The notes: a model not told the origin generated them from the sequence alone. A stretch of 64,000 bases of DNA from an uncultured bacterium (GCA_964418485.1 CAYQMH010000002.1:5687-69686); one strand, 5' to 3'; counted from the stretch's first letter, positions 741 through 62,671 are shown. Numbers and translations: made by a program.

Positions 741-872
741 CTCCTATATACATTTTATGTATTAATATTATATATAATATTTGTATGATGTCAAGGGTTG
801 ATTGGCTGCTAAGATACGAAGACGCAAAGACTTTTTTGCTTTTTCGGAGGTGGTCAGAGTCTATATTTTCTT

Positions 873-7663: not shown

Positions 7664-7854
7664 ATTGGTCGCTAGTCACTGGTCAAAAACAACAAAAGAA
7701 TCCGTGTTTATCCGTGTAAATCCATGGCAATATAATAGATTCTTCGAATCCAAGTTGAATTGTTGAATAGGAAAATAGTTGAATTATTTCCCATTTCCCA
7801 TTTTTCAATTTTTCTAATTCGTTTGTGGGGGTGGGTTTTAAACAGTAAAAATAT

Positions 7855-8818: not shown

Positions 8819-9053
8819 AGTAATAGGTCGGTCGAAGGATCGCCGATGGCTTAAGGCAGGCAAAAAAGAAAAAATTCGTGCTATTCGTGTAATTCCATTT
8901 GAAGTAAATAAAATATCAAAAAGTAAAAAGCAAAATGACAGATAAAAATTTAAAATAATACCTTGCCCTACCGCACATAACTAAAAAATATTTGTGTGAT
9001 TTGTGCTATTTGTTGTTCCTGTCTTTGAGATGGGTTGGGTTTAGCGGAAAGCG

Positions 9054-22330: not shown

Positions 22331-22410
22331 ATCTGTTGGTCTGTGGGTCGGTTAGTCCGTTGGTCCGTTTAAAAAACACACCAACACACCCACGCACTAA
22401 CACACTAACA
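22331..22410 (+). repeat. dispersed heptamer-word repeat Z1
   Basis: Contains GTTGGTC and CACTAAC words. About 85% identical to 52247-52349. Confidence 0.7.
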
Positions 22411-22449
22411 AAATTTAATATTTTTATATTTTAGCGGCTTTGCCGCGCA

Positions 22450-22477
22450 TTGACATATTTTATATTCTCATTATAAT
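22450..22477 (+). promoter_or_regulatory. sigma-70 promoter giving a leaderless mRNA for the aminotransferase-like gene
   Basis: TTGACA (22450-22455), 16 nt, TATAAT (22472-22477), with the ATG at 22484. Confidence 0.5.
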
Positions 22478-22483
22478 ACAATT

Positions 22484-23620
22484 ATGAATTCTATTCTGGG
22501 GAAAATCGAAGATTCTATCATATCCAGAGTTATGAAAGCGGCGGAAGAAAGTAAAGCAATTAATTTTGCCGAAAATCCTATTGAACTCTTTACTCCTGAG
22601 TTTATTATCGAAAGTGCTAAAGAAGCTATAGACGGTGGATTTAACGGATATATAACCAGTGCAGGAAGAAAGCCTTTAAGGAAATTGACTTCTGAAATTA
22701 TATCCAGAGAAACCGGTGTAACTTTCGACCCCGAGGAAGAAATTACAATAACTTCAGGGGCTAGTGAGGCTTTTGTATCCTCCATGTTGAGTCTTGTCGA
22801 GGGCGAGAATGGAGTTGTTATACCAGAGCCTTTTTATGAAAATTATTTACCGATAACTGAGTTGAGTCGGGGTAAGCCTATTTTTTTATCTCTCGCGGAG
22901 CCCGATTATTCTTTTCATTTTACCGATTTTAAGAAATTGCCTACTTTTAAGGTTTTTATTCTTAATAATCCACATAACCCTACAGGAAAAGTCTTTAATT
23001 CAGAAGAAATTAAAGCTATTGGAAACACTGTTCTCGAAAGGGAAGGATATTTGATTGTGGATGAAACTTATAAGCATCTTTTGTATGAAGGTGAATATAT
23101 ATCGCCATTACAGATTGGAGGCCTTATAGATCGTACAATTATTATTGGTAGTTTTTCGACTATTTTTTCCGTGCGGGGTTGGAGATTGGGTTATGTTGCT
23201 GCAAAAGCTCCAATTATGAAAGAAATAAGAAAAGTTCACTATTATAGTTCTATTTCTGCGCCGGTACCTTTTCAGTGGGCATTTGAAAATTTCGATATTC
23301 AATCGAATTTTATAGAAAACATGAAGGAAAAATATAAGGAAAAGAGAGATTTTTTGTGTAGGGCACTCGAAAAAGCAGGATTTAGTTTCTATAACCCTGA
23401 AGGAGGATGTTACGTATTTGTTAATTTTGAGGATGTTTGGGACGGCAATGATTGGGGTTTTTATAAATATTTGCTGAAAAATAAAAATATTGCAATTGTT
23501 CCGGGATCGGCTTTTTATTCCGGTAAAAGTAAAGGAAAGAAGAAAGTAAGATTTACTTTTTCTCAGTCAGATTTCAATCTTAAGGAACTCGCCTCGATAC
23601 TTTCGGCAGGAATTACCTGA
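22484..23620 (+). CDS. class I/II aminotransferase-fold protein with the PLP-lysine replaced by Thr
   Basis: 'NNPHNPTG' and 'VDETY' motifs and the 'GW.LGY' motif are conserved, but 'SFSK' reads 'SFST'. Confidence 0.7.
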   Translation: MNSILGKIEDSIISRVMKAAEESKAINFAENPIELFTPEFIIESAKEAIDGGFNGYITSAGRKPLRKLTSEIISRETGVTFDPEEEITITSGASEAFVSSMLSLVEGENGVVIPEPFYENYLPITELSRGKPIFLSLAEPDYSFHFTDFKKLPTFKVFILNNPHNPTGKVFNSEEIKAIGNTVLEREGYLIVDETYKHLLYEGEYISPLQIGGLIDRTIIIGSFSTIFSVRGWRLGYVAAKAPIMKEIRKVHYYSSISAPVPFQWAFENFDIQSNFIENMKEKYKEKRDFLCRALEKAGFSFYNPEGGCYVFVNFEDVWDGNDWGFYKYLLKNKNIAIVPGSAFYSGKSKGKKKVRFTFSQSDFNLKELASILSAGIT

Positions 23621-23656: not shown

Positions 23657-23872
23657 CTTTGTGTCCTTTGTGAGCTTTGTGTGAATGATTTAGTCATTAG
23701 TCATCGGTCACTAGTCACAGGTCAAAAAAAATTATTTGTGCTATTCGTGCAATTTGTTGTTTCTCTTTGTTTTTGTGAGGGGTAGGGTATAAACAATAAA
23801 AATTCTTTGTTGTTTCTCTGTGATCTCTGTGTGTTTTTTTGTTTCTCTGTGTGCTCTGTGGTTAGAATCGTT
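23657..23872 (+). repeat. dispersed mosaic intergenic repeat Y1
   Basis: Reverse complement of 45789-45916 at about 85% identity. Built from CTTTGTG, TAGTCA and CTCTGTG words. Confidence 0.8.
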
Positions 23873-23875
23873 TTT

Positions 23876-25468
23876 TTACGATTCGTATTCCCACATGGAA
23901 TAGAAGGATTTTAATCTTCTCCTGTTGGGGCTTTTTCGTAATTTGTTCAGTGCGTTTTCTTCAATTTGCCTTATTCTTTCTCTTGTTACTTTAAACATCA
24001 GTCCTATCTCTTCCAGAGTTTTAGTTTCGCCGTCCAACAGTCCGTAACGAAGCTCCAGCACTTTTTTTTCTCTGGGAGATAAAGAACTATCCAGAACTTC
24101 TAAAAGACTTTCGCTTAACAGTTTTAACATAGCCTGTTTTGCCGGAGATGGTGTTTTTTCTTTGGCAATGATATCTCCATAAAGTAAATCTCCTTCATCG
24201 GCAACAGGTTCGTCCAGTGATCTTGTCGAATCGCCTAATGTTTGGGCAAATCTTATTCGTTCTTTTGAGATCCCTATGTATTGGGCTATTTCCTCAAGAG
24301 TTGGTTTAGTACCATTTCTCTGAAGTAAATCTCTTTTTGATTTCGTTATTTTATTAATAAGTGTCAATGTATGAGTAGGAATTGAAAACGAATCGGACTG
24401 TTCTGCGAGAGTCTTTATTATAGCCTGTTTGATCCACCATATCCCATATGTTGAGAATTTGTAACCTTTTGTATGGTCAAATTTTTCGACAGCTTTTATT
24501 AATCCGGCGTTGCCTTCCTGGACAATATCCATAAAACTCACACCGCTTCTTTTAAATTTTTTAGCAATAGAAAAGACCAGCCTAATATTTCCCTCAATTA
24601 GTTCTCTTTTCGCCTGGCAGAAGAAATTTTCCCATTTTCGGATATTCCTGTAAATATGGTTTACTTCTTTCCAGTCAGAATGAATTTTAAGCTGGAAATT
24701 CTTGATTTCCTTAATTATTTCTTTTAACTGCCTTTTTAAATTTTTTCTTTCTTTTGTAGAGCTTGCATTTTCAAATTCTTCTCTTAAACTTCTTGCATAA
24801 GCTACTTTCTTTTTGAATTCGTCGTGAATTTCTTCCTGTAATTGCATGAGTTTTTTGAGGTAAGGAGTCTGTATTCTGAGTTTTAATATAGATTTTATTA
24901 TATTTTTTTCGTGTCGTTTGTACTTAAATTCATAGATTCTTTTTCCCTTTTTAAGATAAGCGTTCTTATAGTGCATTAGTTTAGATTTCCATTTTTCTAT
25001 ACGTTTCATTAATTTAAATAAGTTTTTTTTATCTTTATGACCTTTATAACCCTCATCCCATTTGTGTGTATCTAAGTATAAAAACTGCTTTATGAGAAAA
25101 GGCGATCTTTCTATTTCATCTTTATAAGATAGAAACTTATCTATTATGGGTAGAGATCTAAATAAGTATCTCGAAATCATGGTACGACCTTTTTCTAATT
25201 TCTTACCTATTTCGAATTCTTCTTCTTTTGTGAGCAAGGAAGTGCCGTCGATATCGCGAAGATAAAGTTTTATGGGTTGATCTAATGCGGCAGGTGATAT
25301 TTTAACCGAACTTATATTGTAATCTATATATTTTTCTTCATTATCGTCTTCTTCAAATGTTTCTTCAAGATTTCCTCCTATTTCGGATAAAATTTCATTT
25401 AATTTCTCCTCTGATATATCTAACTTTTCTTTTAGTTCATCGAGATAGATGTTTCCGTCTTTATCCAT
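23876..25468 (-). CDS. rpoD: RNA polymerase sigma-70 factor
   Basis: Regions 1.2, 2, 3 and 4 and a long non-conserved region. The ATG at 25468 is preferred over the GTG at 25582, which lacks an RBS and overlaps dnaG by 83 nt. Confidence 0.9.
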   Translation of the reverse strand: MDKDGNIYLDELKEKLDISEEKLNEILSEIGGNLEETFEEDDNEEKYIDYNISSVKISPAALDQPIKLYLRDIDGTSLLTKEEEFEIGKKLEKGRTMISRYLFRSLPIIDKFLSYKDEIERSPFLIKQFLYLDTHKWDEGYKGHKDKKNLFKLMKRIEKWKSKLMHYKNAYLKKGKRIYEFKYKRHEKNIIKSILKLRIQTPYLKKLMQLQEEIHDEFKKKVAYARSLREEFENASSTKERKNLKRQLKEIIKEIKNFQLKIHSDWKEVNHIYRNIRKWENFFCQAKRELIEGNIRLVFSIAKKFKRSGVSFMDIVQEGNAGLIKAVEKFDHTKGYKFSTYGIWWIKQAIIKTLAEQSDSFSIPTHTLTLINKITKSKRDLLQRNGTKPTLEEIAQYIGISKERIRFAQTLGDSTRSLDEPVADEGDLLYGDIIAKEKTPSPAKQAMLKLLSESLLEVLDSSLSPREKKVLELRYGLLDGETKTLEEIGLMFKVTRERIRQIEENALNKLRKSPNRRRLKSFYSMWEYES

Positions 25469-25499
25469 GAGATTAAGGATTTCCGACCAGACGAGAGCT

Positions 25500-27197
25500 T
25501 TATCTTCCAATGACTTCTCCTTTTTTGAGGCGTTTTCGTTCTTCTTTAAGTTCGTCGATCTCTTTACATAATAATGTATCACTTTTTTCTTTTTCTTTAC
25601 CAGCGTCGATTTTTTGTAATTCTATCACTTTTTCTTCTATTAATTGATTTAAATGATAAATTTTTAAACTTATTGCTCTTCCAACTGCCGAATTTGGAGG
25701 GGTTTCGCTTTTTTTAATCAGATAATCTACGAAAGGTGGAGGGAGAGAGTTTATTATGTCTTTAATTTTCAAGTCCGACCCTTCTTTTAGCAATCTAAAA
25801 TATTTTTTAAGATGAGGATTTTTGACATAATTTTCATCCAGCACGGAGAAAACAATATCTTTTTCTTCCGGATGTTTTAATATTGCATATATAAATGATA
25901 ATTCATGTTCTTCTCTTTCCTCAATGTTTGTTTTTTTCTGAGAAATTATCGTTGTTTTTTTTGTCTCGGATCTTTCCAGCGATTTTCTGCTTATTGCAAG
26001 TTTTTTTGCTATGAAGTCTTCGTATATTTCTCTTTTTGAAGGTTCGTTTATTGCTCCAAGTACTGAAGTAATTTCGTCGACAGCTTTTGTAAGTTCCATA
26101 GGCGAGGAAAGTTTATATTTGTTCCGTATTCTGTCGAGTAGCCAATCGATAAAATCACTTGATTCTTTTAGTAATCTCTCAAAATTTTCTTTGCCTTCTT
26201 TGGATATTATCTCATCGGGATCTTTCCCTTTTCCGCTTTCTGCAATCTTTACGTTGATTTGTTTATCGAGAAGCATGCCTAAGGATCTGAGTGTTGCCGC
26301 CTGTCCAGCAGTATCTTTATCGAAGAAGAGAGTGACTTCTTTGGCATATCGTGAGATTAATTCCGATTGGTCCAGCGTTAAAGAGGTGCCAAGACAAGCT
26401 ACAACGTTCTTTAGTCCCGTTTGATAAAGAGATAAGAAATCAAAATATCCCTCTACAAGTATAACTTTCTCTAATTTTCTTATTTCTTCTTTGGTATGCC
26501 ATAAACTGTAGAAATTCTTCCCTTTCTTATGTATCGGTGTATCCGGTGAATTCAGATATTTTGGTCCTTTTTTACTTAATCTTCTTCCTCCAAAACCAAT
26601 AATCCTGCCCGAAGGAGAAAATAGAGGAAATAAAAGACGGAGGAAGAATGTGTCTTTTAAACTTCCGTTACTTTTTTTTATCAGGCCGCTTTTTATTAAA
26701 TCCTGGATTTTAAATTCTTTCTTCGCGCTGGGGAGAAAATTGCTTCTATACGGCGCGAAACCTAACTTGAATTCTTCTATGGTATCTTCCTTAAGAGCTC
26801 TTTTTTTTAAATAGTCGAGTACTTTGGGTGATTTCAGAAGTTCCTTATGGTAAAAATCTACGGCAAAATCGTGTATTGAATATAGGATTTCATTTTCCCC
26901 TTCAAATTTACCAATTTGTATGCCGGCTCTTTCGGCTAAGATACGGACAGCTTCCGTAAAAGGAACTTTCTCGAATTCCATAACAAAGGTAATCACATCA
27001 CCACTTTTGCCGCAACCGAAACAATGAAATATATTTAAAGCCGGGGAAACATGAAATGAAGGAGTGTTATCTTTATGAAAAGGACAATTGGTTACGTAGT
27101 TTTTACCTGCTTTCTTCAAAGGAAGATAATCTCCAATGAGGTGAGCTATTTCTATTTTTTCCTTGATTTGGTTTATAACCCCATCAGAAACAAGCAT
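25500..27197 (-). CDS. dnaG: DNA primase
   Basis: Zinc finger 'CPFHKDNTPSF...CFGCG' and a TOPRIM domain. The ATG start at 27197 (MLVSDGVINQ...) is preferred over the TTG at 27233. Confidence 0.9.
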   Translation of the reverse strand: MLVSDGVINQIKEKIEIAHLIGDYLPLKKAGKNYVTNCPFHKDNTPSFHVSPALNIFHCFGCGKSGDVITFVMEFEKVPFTEAVRILAERAGIQIGKFEGENEILYSIHDFAVDFYHKELLKSPKVLDYLKKRALKEDTIEEFKLGFAPYRSNFLPSAKKEFKIQDLIKSGLIKKSNGSLKDTFFLRLLFPLFSPSGRIIGFGGRRLSKKGPKYLNSPDTPIHKKGKNFYSLWHTKEEIRKLEKVILVEGYFDFLSLYQTGLKNVVACLGTSLTLDQSELISRYAKEVTLFFDKDTAGQAATLRSLGMLLDKQINVKIAESGKGKDPDEIISKEGKENFERLLKESSDFIDWLLDRIRNKYKLSSPMELTKAVDEITSVLGAINEPSKREIYEDFIAKKLAISRKSLERSETKKTTIISQKKTNIEEREEHELSFIYAILKHPEEKDIVFSVLDENYVKNPHLKKYFRLLKEGSDLKIKDIINSLPPPFVDYLIKKSETPPNSAVGRAISLKIYHLNQLIEEKVIELQKIDAGKEKEKSDTLLCKEIDELKEERKRLKKGEVIGR

Positions 27198-27578
27198 AAC
27201 TATAAATTCTAAGTTTTTTTTCGACTTTCGCAAGCCCCATTATAGCGAAAAAACCGCTAAAGTGAAAAAATAAAAAATCAAAATGCAAAGTTAAAAATCA
27301 AAGTTTGAAAATAAAGTAAAAACAAAAATAAAAATCTTTGTGTTATTTTGGTAAATTTGTGTTTAGATCTAGGAATTTCGCTATTTTAGCGCATTTCACG
27401 TTTATTATTTTAATATGGTGGGGAATTAGCCCTATTTTTAAATTTCTAAGTTAACATCTTTTTTAAAAAAAATAAAATAACTGTATTTAAGTTTACCGCT
27501 TCTTAAACTTTTGATCTGTTATATCTTACAAAAGAGCATGTCAAGGAGTTTTTAAAGCAAAAAAACCTATTTAACCCC

Positions 27579-27606
27579 TTGACAAAATCTACAATTTGAT
27601 TATAAT
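27579..27606 (+). promoter_or_regulatory. dcw-cluster sigma-70 promoter
   Basis: TTGACA (27579-27584), 16 nt, TATAAT (27601-27606). Confidence 0.6.
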
Positions 27607-45788: not shown

Positions 45789-45916
45789 CCACAGAGTGCA
45801 CAGAGGAAGAAAAAACGCACAGAGAACACAAAGGAACAACAAAGAATTTTTATTGTTTGTACCCCACCCCTCACAAAAACAAAGAGTAACGACAAATAGC
45901 ACAAATAACACAAATC
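45789..45916 (-). repeat. dispersed mosaic intergenic repeat Y2
   Basis: Reverse complement of 23657-23872. Confidence 0.8.
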
Positions 45917-47193: not shown

Positions 47194-47239
47194 TTGAATT
47201 CATGATAATTATTATAATCATTTTACTTAGACTGTCAAG
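47194..47239 (-). promoter_or_regulatory. repeated consensus promoter module, copy 2
   Basis: Minus strand reads CTTGACAgtctaagtaaaatgatTATAATaattatcatgaattcaa. Confidence 0.65.
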
Positions 47240-49587: not shown

Positions 49588-49633
49588 TTGAGTTCATGAT
49601 AATTATTATAGTTATTTTACTTAGGCTGTCAAG
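49588..49633 (-). promoter_or_regulatory. repeated consensus promoter module, copy 3
   Basis: Minus strand reads CTTGACAgcctaagtaaaataacTATAATaattatcatgaactcaa. Confidence 0.65.
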
Positions 49634-50503: not shown

Positions 50504-50533
50504 TTATTATAATTGTTTTACTTAGGCTGTCAA
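50504..50533 (-). promoter_or_regulatory. repeated consensus promoter module, copy 4, fused directly to the RBS
   Basis: Minus strand reads TTGACAgcctaagtaaaacaatTATAATaattttAAGGAGGctccggATG. Confidence 0.7.
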
Positions 50534-52246: not shown

Positions 52247-52349
52247 GCCACGAAGACACTAAGACACAAAGTCCTTGGATCGTTGGTCTGTTGGTCGGTT
52301 AGTCCGTAAAAATAACGCACCAACACACCCACGCACTAACCCACTAACT
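52247..52349 (+). repeat. dispersed heptamer-word repeat Z2
   Basis: Matches 22331-22410. Also shares module 'gccacgaagacactaagacacaaag' with 53455-53480. Confidence 0.7.
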
Positions 52350-54285: not shown

Positions 54286-54412
54286 TTATTTGTGATATTT
54301 GTGCAATTTGTTGTTGCTAATTTTTTTGTGGTTGGGGTTGTTTTTAAAGCAGCAAAAAAATTGGGTGTGGAGTGGTGGTGTATCTGAGTTGATCTGCGTT
54401 CATCTGGGTCCT
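54286..54412 (+). repeat. dispersed mosaic intergenic repeat X5
   Basis: 'tttgtgatatttgtgcaatttgttgttgc' and 'gatctgcgttcatctgggtcc' modules are shared with X2. Confidence 0.6.
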
Positions 54413-62485: not shown

Positions 62486-62550
62486 GGTGTTGGGTTGGGT
62501 TTTAAACAACACAGATATTTTTTTCTTTGTGCCCTTTGTGTCTTTGTGTG
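62486..62550 (-). repeat. dispersed mosaic intergenic repeat X6
   Basis: 'gttgggttgggttttaaa' plus 'ctttgtgccctttgtgtctttgtgtg', which is the reverse complement of module f at 53455. Confidence 0.6.
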
Positions 62551-62671
62551 AGAATCTTTTTCGGAGTGGGGTGGGGTTGTTGACATTTACGTGGGAAACT
62601 CATATCATGTATAGTAAATGAAAGTTCGAAAAAGATTGTATGAGCGATTTCTTTTTGAAGTTTCGCCAGTT

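What the first reader, a model, noticed from the sequence alone, without database searches (positions are those of the whole stretch)
22484..23620. Aminotransferase-fold protein lacking the Schiff-base lysine (SFSK to SFST)
Class I aminotransferase landmarks are intact (NNPHNPTG, VDETY, GW.LGY). However, the invariant PLP-binding Lys reads Thr (codon ACT at 23159-23161, which would need two substitutions from Lys, so a single-base error is unlikely). Either this is a pseudo-enzyme or regulatory paralog, or it uses unusual chemistry. It is transcribed from a leaderless promoter next to a Z-type repeat.
Basis: partly seen in the sequence, partly recalled or inferred. Interest (0 to 1): 0.55.

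Follow-up and report, generated by a model that had tools for sequence, protein, structure and literature searches.

The report
Conserved aminotransferase homolog without catalytic lysine
A whole lineage of uncultured WOR-3/Stahlbacteria bacteria keeps, under strong selection, an aminotransferase-like protein that has lost the lysine every such enzyme needs but still has the residues that hold the vitamin-B6 cofactor, so it must do something other than ordinary transamination.

Summary
ORF 22484-23620 (+) encodes a 378-aa class I aminotransferase-fold protein (Pfam PF00155, E 1e-54; AF2 pLDDT 93; TM 0.92-0.95 to KAT/YbdL/DapC). Thr226 (ACT, 23159-23161) sits exactly where the Schiff-base Lys should be.

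This is not a strain defect. All 28 protein clusters at 57-100% identity, and 17 GTDB species loci, carry T, A, V or I there. They form a clade with 100/100 bootstrap support, nested among Lys-bearing WOR-3 relatives. dN/dS is 0.04-0.17, and the protein is more conserved than neighbouring RpoD and DnaG.

The Lys loss coincides with replacement of otherwise invariant substrate/lid residues (R14, T17, Q30-G31, W60, T231, D253, S343). Cofactor-binding residues (Y56, N165, D193, Y196, S225, R234) and the carboxylate Arg356 are retained. No substitute Lys appears.

Every clade member has a conserved TTGACA-N15/16-TATAAT-N6-ATG leaderless promoter and lies next to rpoD. Lys-bearing relatives have neither feature.

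Best reading: a protein that binds PLP/PMP non-covalently and cannot run ping-pong transamination, that is a ligand-binding pseudoenzyme. Lysine-independent chemistry is the main rival. Function is not established. I class it as a new variant of a known kind.

The parts
22484..23620 (+). CDS of the Lys-less class I aminotransferase-fold protein (378 aa plus stop)
   Evidence: Identical protein P0001.
23159..23161 (+). Codon ACT = Thr226, in the column of the Schiff-base/catalytic Lys (SxSK motif reads SFST)
   Evidence: The column is T/A/V/I in the clade and lies at the 90th percentile of variability there.
22450..22477 (+). Sigma-70 promoter: -35 TTGACA (22450-22455), 16-nt spacer, -10 TATAAT (22472-22477). 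The ATG starts 6 nt after the -10, implying a leaderless mRNA.
   Evidence: 12/12 match; 6 perfect sites in the window against 0.08 expected; the only one placed this close to a start codon; conserved in 20 orthologous loci.
22571..22582 (+). Residues E30-N31-P32-I33, replacing the Q-G-x-P substrate-carboxylate/lid motif of Lys-bearing relatives (QGFP in YbdL)
22976..22978 (+). Asn165 (NPHNPTG), cofactor O3'/substrate carboxylate ligand, retained 28/28
   Evidence: Equivalence to hKAT-1 Asn185 is by motif (PMC4926479).
23060..23071 (+). Asp193-Glu-Thr-Tyr196 (DETY): the pyridine-N1 Asp and O3' Tyr are retained (28/28 and 27/28)
23156..23158 (+). Ser225, the phosphate-binding Ser of the SxSK motif, retained 28/28
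23183..23185 (+). Arg234 (GWRLGY), phosphate-binding Arg, retained 28/28
23240..23242 (+). Tyr253, a clade-specific replacement of an Asp that is invariant in the Lys-bearing outgroup (HD becomes HY). It is Y in 25/28 and H, E or S in the other three.
23549..23551 (+). Arg356, the alpha-carboxylate-binding Arg (equivalent to AspAT Arg386 / hKAT-1 Arg398), retained 27/28
23876..25582 (-). rpoD (context). It is the conserved immediate neighbour of every Lys-less ortholog: convergent here, co-directional just upstream in deeper lineages.

Best explanation
The gene encodes a selectively maintained, neofunctionalised descendant of a KAT/YbdL/MtnE-like class I aminotransferase. In the common ancestor of one WOR-3/Stahlbacteria lineage, several changes fall on the same stem branch. 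The Schiff-base Lys was lost. Substrate-lid and pocket residues were replaced (R14, T17, Q30-G31, W60, T231, D253, S343). The gene acquired its own strong leaderless promoter and a position beside rpoD. These points are shown. Because the residues that hold the pyridine ring, O3' and phosphate, and the alpha-carboxylate Arg, are still conserved, I infer three things. The protein still binds PLP or PMP (or a PLP-amino-acid aldimine) non-covalently. It cannot form an internal aldimine, and it lacks the base for the C-alpha/C4' proton shift. It therefore does not perform normal ping-pong transamination. The most likely role is a cofactor- or amino-acid-binding pseudoenzyme, acting as a sensor, regulator or scaffold. 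The ligand and any partner are unknown.
For: Lys column: T226 aligns to the Lys of three solved enzymes. All 28 clade clusters have T/A/V/I there, against K in the 91 Lys-bearing relatives aligned. The column is among the 10% most variable in the clade, so no residue there has a catalytic role. Selection: dN/dS is 0.04-0.17 in 16 within-clade pairs with unsaturated dS, all ORFs are intact, and 26 of 28 clade cluster representatives are 378 aa. By tblastn identity the AT is 71% and 64% identical between lineages, against 52% and 47% for RpoD and 64% and 61% for DnaG. Single origin: the clade has 100/100 NJ bootstrap support, nested in a Lys-bearing family that is itself 100/100. Cofactor residues Y56, G92, Y118, N165, D193, Y196, S225, R234 and R356 are each kept in at least 26/28 sequences, whereas only 49.5% of columns are that conserved. 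Residues invariant in the outgroup are replaced in exact step with the Lys loss. No substitute Lys exists: K197 is already present in Lys-bearing sisters P0029/30 and is R in two clade members. Fold: pLDDT 93, pTM 0.93, TM 0.92-0.95 to KAT, YbdL and DapC. Lys258Ala AspAT is described as catalytically dead and is rescued only by exogenous amines (PMC12018205). The Lys is regarded as the proton-transfer base (PMC6411801). The conserved dedicated promoter shows the gene is meant to be expressed.
Against: No experiment or expression data exist. Cofactor binding is inferred only from residue conservation. Those residues could be kept for folding, or for a partner subunit's site (Y56 acts in trans). 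Very strong purifying selection, together with a new, conserved set of pocket residues (E30, N31, G55, F155, Y205, Y253, A343), is equally what one would expect of an enzyme with a new substrate and a new acid/base. Conserved adjacency to rpoD may be only inherited gene order. I could not inspect model coordinates, so pocket geometry is untested.
Confidence: 0.5

Rival explanations
1. It is a genuine enzyme with lysine-independent chemistry. The cofactor is held non-covalently. One option is PMP attacking a carbonyl substrate directly, as in ColD/E1/SpnQ. The other is PLP forming the external aldimine without transimination. Acid/base steps would be done by newly fixed residues such as Glu30 or Tyr/His253, the latter possibly from the neighbouring subunit, or the reaction would need no C-alpha base.
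For: Cofactor and alpha-carboxylate ligands are fully retained. A new, well-conserved residue set lies at positions that line the substrate pocket in homologs: E30 in 26/28, N31 in 27/28, G55 and A343 in 28/28, and Y253 in 25/28. dN/dS of about 0.05 is typical of enzymes. Precedent exists: 3-dehydratases of the aminotransferase fold replace the Lys and use PMP (PMC8987622). The same NCBIfam neighbourhood includes GntC, a non-transaminase cyclodehydratase.
Against: In ColD/E1 the Lys is replaced by a catalytic His. Here the position is T/A/V/I and variable. No candidate base is strictly invariant: E30 is Q or R, and Y253 is H, E or S, in some members. No class I (PF00155) enzyme lacking the Lys was found in the literature searched. 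K258A AspAT is dead without added amines. No pathway genes accompany the gene in its neighbourhood.
Confidence: 0.3
2. It is the catalytically silent subunit of a heterodimer with a Lys-bearing class I aminotransferase encoded elsewhere in the genome. This would be analogous to SPT1/LCB1 pairing with SPT2/LCB2. It would contribute trans-acting residues and regulation to the partner's single active site.
For: [quoted passage not shown] The trans-acting Tyr56 is kept in 26/28. SPT1 lacks the PLP Lys while SPT2 has it, and both are required (PMC6148460).
Against: No paralog was found in the 64-kb window or beside the gene in any of 20 loci. The GTDB scan found only one family member per WOR-3 genome, though this is weak evidence given MAG incompleteness and the pattern-based search. 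Full retention of this protein's own cis cofactor ligands (N165, D193, Y196, S225, R234) is not expected for a dead site. Two other Lys-less representatives, P0191 and P0235, lost the phosphate Arg as well.
Confidence: 0.12
3. It is a decaying pseudogene, a strain-specific inactivation, or a sequencing or assembly error.
For: The only support is the absence of the catalytic Lys.
Against: There are intact 378-aa ORFs in 21 loci from independent assemblies. dN/dS is 0.04-0.17. The clade is monophyletic at 57-100% identity. The promoter is conserved. The identical protein is found in two samples.
Confidence: 0.02

Closest known systems
KAT / YbdL / MtnE / DapC-type class I (fold type I) aminotransferases, Pfam PF00155
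   Same: Same fold and length. Foldseek TM is 0.92-0.95 and the best NCBIfam hit is methionine aminotransferase PRK09082. The same cofactor ligands are present (Asn-Pro-Thr-Gly Asn, DExY Asp/Tyr, SxS Ser, GWR Arg), as are the trans Tyr and the C-terminal carboxylate Arg.
   Different: There is no Schiff-base Lys (T226). The QGxP motif reads ENPI. R14, T17, W60, T231, D253 and S343, which are invariant in the outgroup, are replaced. Scores fall below every NCBIfam curated cut-off, for example 250 against 420. The gene has a leaderless promoter and rpoD adjacency, both absent from Lys-bearing sisters.
SPT1/LCB1, the Lys-less subunit of eukaryotic serine palmitoyltransferase
   Same: It is a fold-type I PLP-family protein that lacks the PLP-binding Lys yet is essential and conserved (PMC6148460).
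   Different: It belongs to a different subfamily (alpha-oxoamine synthases). It works with a known Lys-bearing partner, and none was found here. From my own knowledge, LCB1 has also lost other PLP ligands, whereas they are retained here.
ColD / E1 / SpnQ PMP-dependent sugar 3-dehydratases
   Same: Aminotransferase-fold proteins in which the catalytic Lys is naturally replaced and the cofactor is bound non-covalently as PMP (PMC8987622).
   Different: They carry a catalytic His at the Lys position and belong to the sugar-aminotransferase (DegT/PF01041) group. Here the position is T/A/V/I and variable, the family is PF00155, and there is no Fe-S motif or sugar-pathway context.
Engineered AspAT Lys258Ala
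   Same: The same kind of substitution (Lys to a small neutral residue) in the same fold. This gives a direct expectation for the biochemistry: no internal aldimine and loss of proton transfer (PMC12018205; PMC6411801).
   Different: That is a laboratory point mutant. Here the change is natural and ancient, is accompanied by about a dozen coordinated pocket changes, and is under purifying selection.

Membership tests
Class I/II aminotransferases (Pfam PF00155, fold type I) | Sequence match above the Pfam gathering score | tested here: met
   186.3 bits against 19.7, residues 24-371
Class I/II aminotransferases (Pfam PF00155, fold type I) | Two-domain fold-type I architecture | tested here: met
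   AF2 pLDDT 93 and pTM 0.93. Foldseek TM 0.92-0.95 to 2o0r, 1u08, 5veh and 1gd9.
Class I/II aminotransferases (Pfam PF00155, fold type I) | Schiff-base (internal aldimine) Lys in the SxSK motif | tested here: not met
   T226. T/A/V/I in all 28 clade clusters, and K in the 91 Lys-bearing relatives aligned.
Class I/II aminotransferases (Pfam PF00155, fold type I) | Asp to pyridine N1, Asn and Tyr to O3', Ser and Arg to phosphate, trans Tyr | tested here: met
   D193, N165, Y196, S225, R234 and Y56 are each conserved in 26-28 of 28. Functional equivalence is by motif alignment, not by structure.
Class I/II aminotransferases (Pfam PF00155, fold type I) | C-terminal Arg binding the substrate alpha-carboxylate | tested here: met
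   R356 in 27/28
Class I/II aminotransferases (Pfam PF00155, fold type I) | PLP-dependent transaminase activity | not testable with these tools
   Needs recombinant protein. Loss is predicted from the K258A precedent.
Methionine/glutamine/kynurenine aminotransferase subfamily (NCBIfam PRK09082 and relatives) | Score above the curated cut-off, and the QGxP substrate motif | tested here: not met
   250 against 420 bits, and all 74 family hits shown are below their cut-offs. QGFP reads ENPI.
PMP-dependent 3-dehydratases (ColD/E1/SpnQ) | Catalytic His in place of the Lys, and membership of the DegT/sugar aminotransferase group | tested here: not met
   T/A/V/I at the position. Only PF00155 hits the protein.
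Dead subunit of a heteromeric fold-type I enzyme (SPT1/LCB1 type) | Co-occurring Lys-bearing paralog that forms the active heterodimer | tested here: inconclusive
   None in the window, in 20 flanks, or among the GTDB hits of the same genomes. Whole genomes could not be inventoried.
MocR/GabR-type regulators (aminotransferase-fold effector domain fused to wHTH) | N-terminal DNA-binding domain | tested here: not met
   The 378-aa protein is entirely covered by the aminotransferase fold and has no other Pfam domain.

The most novel reading that the evidence does not exclude
The protein is a catalytically active class I aminotransferase-fold enzyme that works without any active-site lysine. It would bind PLP/PMP non-covalently and use newly fixed residues (Glu30/Asn31 lid, Tyr/His253) for acid/base chemistry on a new substrate. 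A variant of this reading is that it couples B6 or amino-acid status to the adjacent sigma-70/primase unit. Either would be a mechanism or role not described for PF00155 proteins.
Probability: 0.25. Interest if true: 0.8.

Novelty: new variant of a known kind. Interest (0 to 1): 0.6.

Why it matters
The Schiff-base lysine is the textbook invariant of PLP enzymes, and automatic annotation calls these proteins 'pyridoxal phosphate-dependent aminotransferase'. Here a natural, ancient, strongly constrained lineage lacks it while keeping every other cofactor ligand. This gives a clean natural experiment on what an aminotransferase scaffold can do without its lysine. The possibilities are a bacterial pseudoenzyme that senses B6 or amino acids, or lysine-independent PLP/PMP chemistry. 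It also warns that metabolic reconstructions of WOR-3/Stahlbacteria MAGs count a transaminase that almost certainly is not one. The conserved consensus promoter with the ATG 6 nt after the -10 is a clear comparative case of a leaderless gene in a candidate phylum.

Tried and rejected
1. Realignment to rescue a Lys. Three independent pairwise HMMER alignments and two MAFFT alignments all keep T226 in the Lys column with no gaps nearby.
2. A relocated Lys. The only clade-typical Lys, K197, is already present in Lys-bearing sisters and is Arg in two members. K169 and K250 are shared with all relatives.
3. Sequencing error or pseudogene. Rejected.
4. A fused regulatory (HTH) domain. None found.
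5. A riboswitch or known RNA in the flanks. There are no Rfam hits at E of 1 or less, and no intrinsic terminator-like sites.
6. A paralog in the window. None found.
7. A named NCBIfam family for the clade, its Lys-bearing sisters, or the three other Lys-less representatives. All scores are below the cut-offs.
8. Literature on Lys-less class I aminotransferases, or on this gene in WOR-3. Nothing was found in the searchable library. This does not prove absence.
9. Absence of an SD as evidence in itself. Neighbouring genes are mixed, some with GGAGG and some without. The leaderless call therefore rests on promoter geometry and conservation instead.
10. Pocket geometry from the AF2 model.

Full report
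**1. The observation**

The ORF listing and the raw sequence show a 378-aa ORF at 22484..23620 (+). It carries LNNPHNPTG, VDETY, GSFST and GWRLGY. Codon 226 is ACT at 23159-23161.

Pfam PF00155 matches residues 24-371 (E 1.3e-54). HMMER alignments to solved structures place T226 under the Schiff-base Lys of three enzymes, with flanking Ser and Gly-Trp-Arg in register and no nearby gaps. These enzymes are P. horikoshii AroAT (1dju/1gd9), M. tuberculosis DapC (2o0r) and E. coli YbdL (1u08). An AlphaFold2 model is confident (pLDDT 93, pTM 0.93). It superposes on KAT, YbdL, DapC and AspAT structures with TM 0.92-0.95.

**2. It is a clade, not a strain defect**

A search of 5.8 billion proteins returned the identical protein and a tight family of 37 clusters at 48-100% identity. 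After these, identity drops to 41% or less. Sources name the organisms candidate division WOR-3. The GTDB loci add Candidatus Stahlbacteria and one TA06-labelled MAG.

The catalytic column reads as follows:
- P0001-P0028 (57-100% identity; 26 of the 28 are 378 aa): T in 15, V in 7, A in 3, I in 3.
- P0031: R.
- P0029, P0030 and P0032-37, and all 83 more distant hits: K.

Of the 149 nearest 50%-identity cluster representatives, 146 have K. Codons at the column are ACT/ACC, GCA/GCT and GTT in the clade, AAG in the Lys-bearing sisters, and AGG in the R variant.

An NJ tree with 100 bootstraps supports three points:
- The Lys-less group is monophyletic (100/100).
- It is nested in the 37-cluster family (100/100).
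- The R variant groups with Lys-bearing P0029/30, so it is an independent loss.

Within the clade, the former Lys column is at the 90th percentile of column entropy. It flipped among T, A, V and I several times.

**3. The gene is under strong purifying selection**

All 21 orthologous loci examined carry intact ORFs; 20 are 378 aa and the Lys-bearing L007 is 375 aa. Nei-Gojobori dN/dS is 0.04-0.17 for 16 within-clade pairs with unsaturated dS.

Between the window lineage and the two deeper lineages, tblastn identities compare as follows:

| Protein | vs L004 | vs L005 |
|---|---|---|
| Aminotransferase homolog | 71% | 64% |
| RpoD | 52% | 47% |
| DnaG | 64% | 61% |

Pseudogene and error explanations are excluded.

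**4. What changed and what did not**

I compared the 28 Lys-less clusters with 8 Lys-bearing sisters and 83 outgroup sequences.

Cofactor-contact residues are each kept in 26-28 of 28, whereas only 49.5% of all columns are that conserved:
- Y56, the trans Tyr
- G92-A-S
- F117-Y118
- N165
- D193
- Y196
- S223/S225
- R234
- R356, the alpha-carboxylate Arg

By contrast, residues that are invariant or nearly so in all Lys-bearing relatives are replaced in exact step with the Lys loss:

| Lys-bearing relatives | Lys-less clade |
|---|---|
| R14 | S/M/W |
| T17 | M/V |
| Q30-G31 | E-N |
| P33 | I/L |
| Q55 | G |
| W/F60 | A/E/G |
| T155 | F |
| T231 | R/S |
| D253 | Y |
| S343 | A |

The YbdL motif QGFP reads ENPI here.

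By established knowledge of AspAT and KAT structures, the Gly of this motif and the N-terminal arm close over the substrate carboxylate. The 253-257 segment contributes to the neighbouring subunit's pocket. hKAT-1 uses Asn185 and Arg398 for the carboxylate, and Tyr63*, Phe278* and His279* in trans (PMC4926479). The mapping of my residues onto these roles is by motif alignment, not by inspection of coordinates.

No new invariant Lys appears. K197 predates the loss and is Arg in two members.

**5. Expression signal and context**

A perfect TTGACA-16-TATAAT lies at 22450-22477, and the ATG begins 6 nt after the -10. The window holds six perfect consensus promoters against 0.08 expected, so the organism uses this consensus. 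Only this one abuts a start codon so closely.

There is no SD and no upstream in-frame start. The N-terminus aligns from residue 1 with all orthologs, and from residue 7 with YbdL.

The architecture ATTGACAT-N15/16-TATAAT or TATATT-N6-ATG is conserved in all 20 Lys-less loci. This includes those where the gene follows rpoD co-directionally with only a 37-95 bp gap. The sequence further upstream is unrelated between lineages. The R and K relatives L006, L022 and L023 instead have GGAGA or GGAGG a few nucleotides before the ATG. L007 shows no obvious SD there.

Every Lys-less locus with enough flank is adjacent to rpoD-dnaG. None of the K or R loci is. Loss of Lys, pocket remodelling, a leaderless promoter and the rpoD position therefore all map to the same stem branch.

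**6. Mechanistic reading**

Shown: the protein cannot form an internal aldimine, and no residue at position 226 can act as a base.

From the literature:
- The Lys is the proton-transfer catalyst of transamination (PMC6411801).
- AspAT K258A is catalytically dead unless exogenous amines are supplied (PMC12018205).

Inferred: the retained ring, phosphate and carboxylate ligands mean the protein still binds PLP/PMP, or a PLP-amino-acid aldimine, non-covalently. It functions as a ligand-binding pseudoenzyme. I put this at about 0.5.

Main rival (0.3): a true enzyme using PMP, or another base such as Glu30 or Tyr/His253. ColD/E1/SpnQ show that the aminotransferase fold can dispense with the Lys, but they substitute a catalytic His (PMC8987622). 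Here the position is neutral and variable.

Second rival (0.12): an SPT1/LCB1-like silent subunit (PMC6148460). No partner gene was seen, and the protein's own cis cofactor ligands have not decayed. This is unlike two other Lys-less representatives, which also lost the phosphate Arg.

**7. Comparison with known families and novelty**

By fold and Pfam score this is a PF00155 family member, but it fails the family's catalytic hallmark. It scores below every curated NCBIfam cut-off, and its Lys-bearing sisters score higher on the same models. It is not a ColD-type, MocR-type or demonstrated LCB1-type protein.

I found no description of a Lys-less class I aminotransferase clade in bacteria, or of this gene, in the searchable literature. 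Databases label it an ordinary PLP-dependent aminotransferase. I class it as a new variant of a known kind.

**8. Limits**

There are no biochemical or expression data. The tree is NJ, not ML. The functional assignment therefore remains a ranked hypothesis.

Noticed in passing
window 22335-22410; also 23657-23873, 45790-45915, 52249-52304, 54287-54311, 62524-62549, 7699-7723, 8873-9013: Intergenic DNA contains short-period (7-9 nt) degenerate GT-rich and AC-rich tandem arrays. Upstream of the gene, GTTGGTCC x4.4 and AACACACC x4.5 are mutually complementary and fold into one long hairpin (dG -34.2, z -3.0). It is a window-wide element family, not specific to this gene.
   Followed up: partly
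window 22434-22446: A small GC hairpin, GCGGC-TTT-GCCGC, directly abuts the -35 hexamer. The same hairpin is present in orthologous loci L009, L014, L015 and L016, but is replaced by CAAAAACA in others.
   Followed up: no
window 22456-22483 and orthologous loci L008-L017: The promoter spacer and the 6 nt before the ATG are almost invariant among relatives whose synonymous sites are near saturation (dS 0.8-1.5). This suggests constraint beyond the two hexamers, for example an operator or spacer-dependent promoter strength.
   Followed up: no
proteins P0149, P0191, P0235 (nearest 50%-cluster representatives): Three other representatives of the wider family also lack the Lys: R in P0149, D in P0191 and D in P0235. 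The two D variants have also lost the phosphate-binding Arg (GWN/GWQ). Lys-less class I aminotransferase homologs therefore arise sporadically, in about 2% of near relatives, with differing degrees of site decay.
   Followed up: partly
L006 10001-11137 (protein P0031): There is an independent Lys-to-Arg (AGG) variant in a sister lineage. It overlaps by 4 nt the end of a T2SSE-type ATPase gene, in an apparent operon with a histidine kinase. It has also lost Tyr196 (N) and other conserved residues.
   Followed up: partly
protein P0018: An 81%-identical clade member is labelled 'Promethearchaeota archaeon' in NCBI. This is most likely a WOR-3 contig mis-binned into an archaeal MAG.
   Followed up: no
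window 767-794(-), 27579-27606(+), 47211-47238(-), 49605-49632(-), 50506-50533(-), 62580(+): There are five further perfect TTGACA-N16-18-TATAAT sites, against 0.08 expected. The one at 27579 ends 14 nt before the mraZ GTG. Three on the minus strand share a near-identical spacer (CCTAAGTAAAA), suggesting a repeated promoter module. A weaker leaderless-like site at 62580 precedes a 461-aa ORF at 62618.
   Followed up: no
window 23876-27233 (-) and about 27621 onward (+): The gene sits between a Wza-like polysaccharide export gene and rpoD-dnaG, about 4 kb from the mraZ-rsmH-ftsL-pbp-murE-murF-mraY cluster. One Foldseek hit (9a7o) is B. subtilis DapX modelled in complex with the division protein GpsB, an example of a class I aminotransferase with a protein-interaction role.
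   Followed up: no
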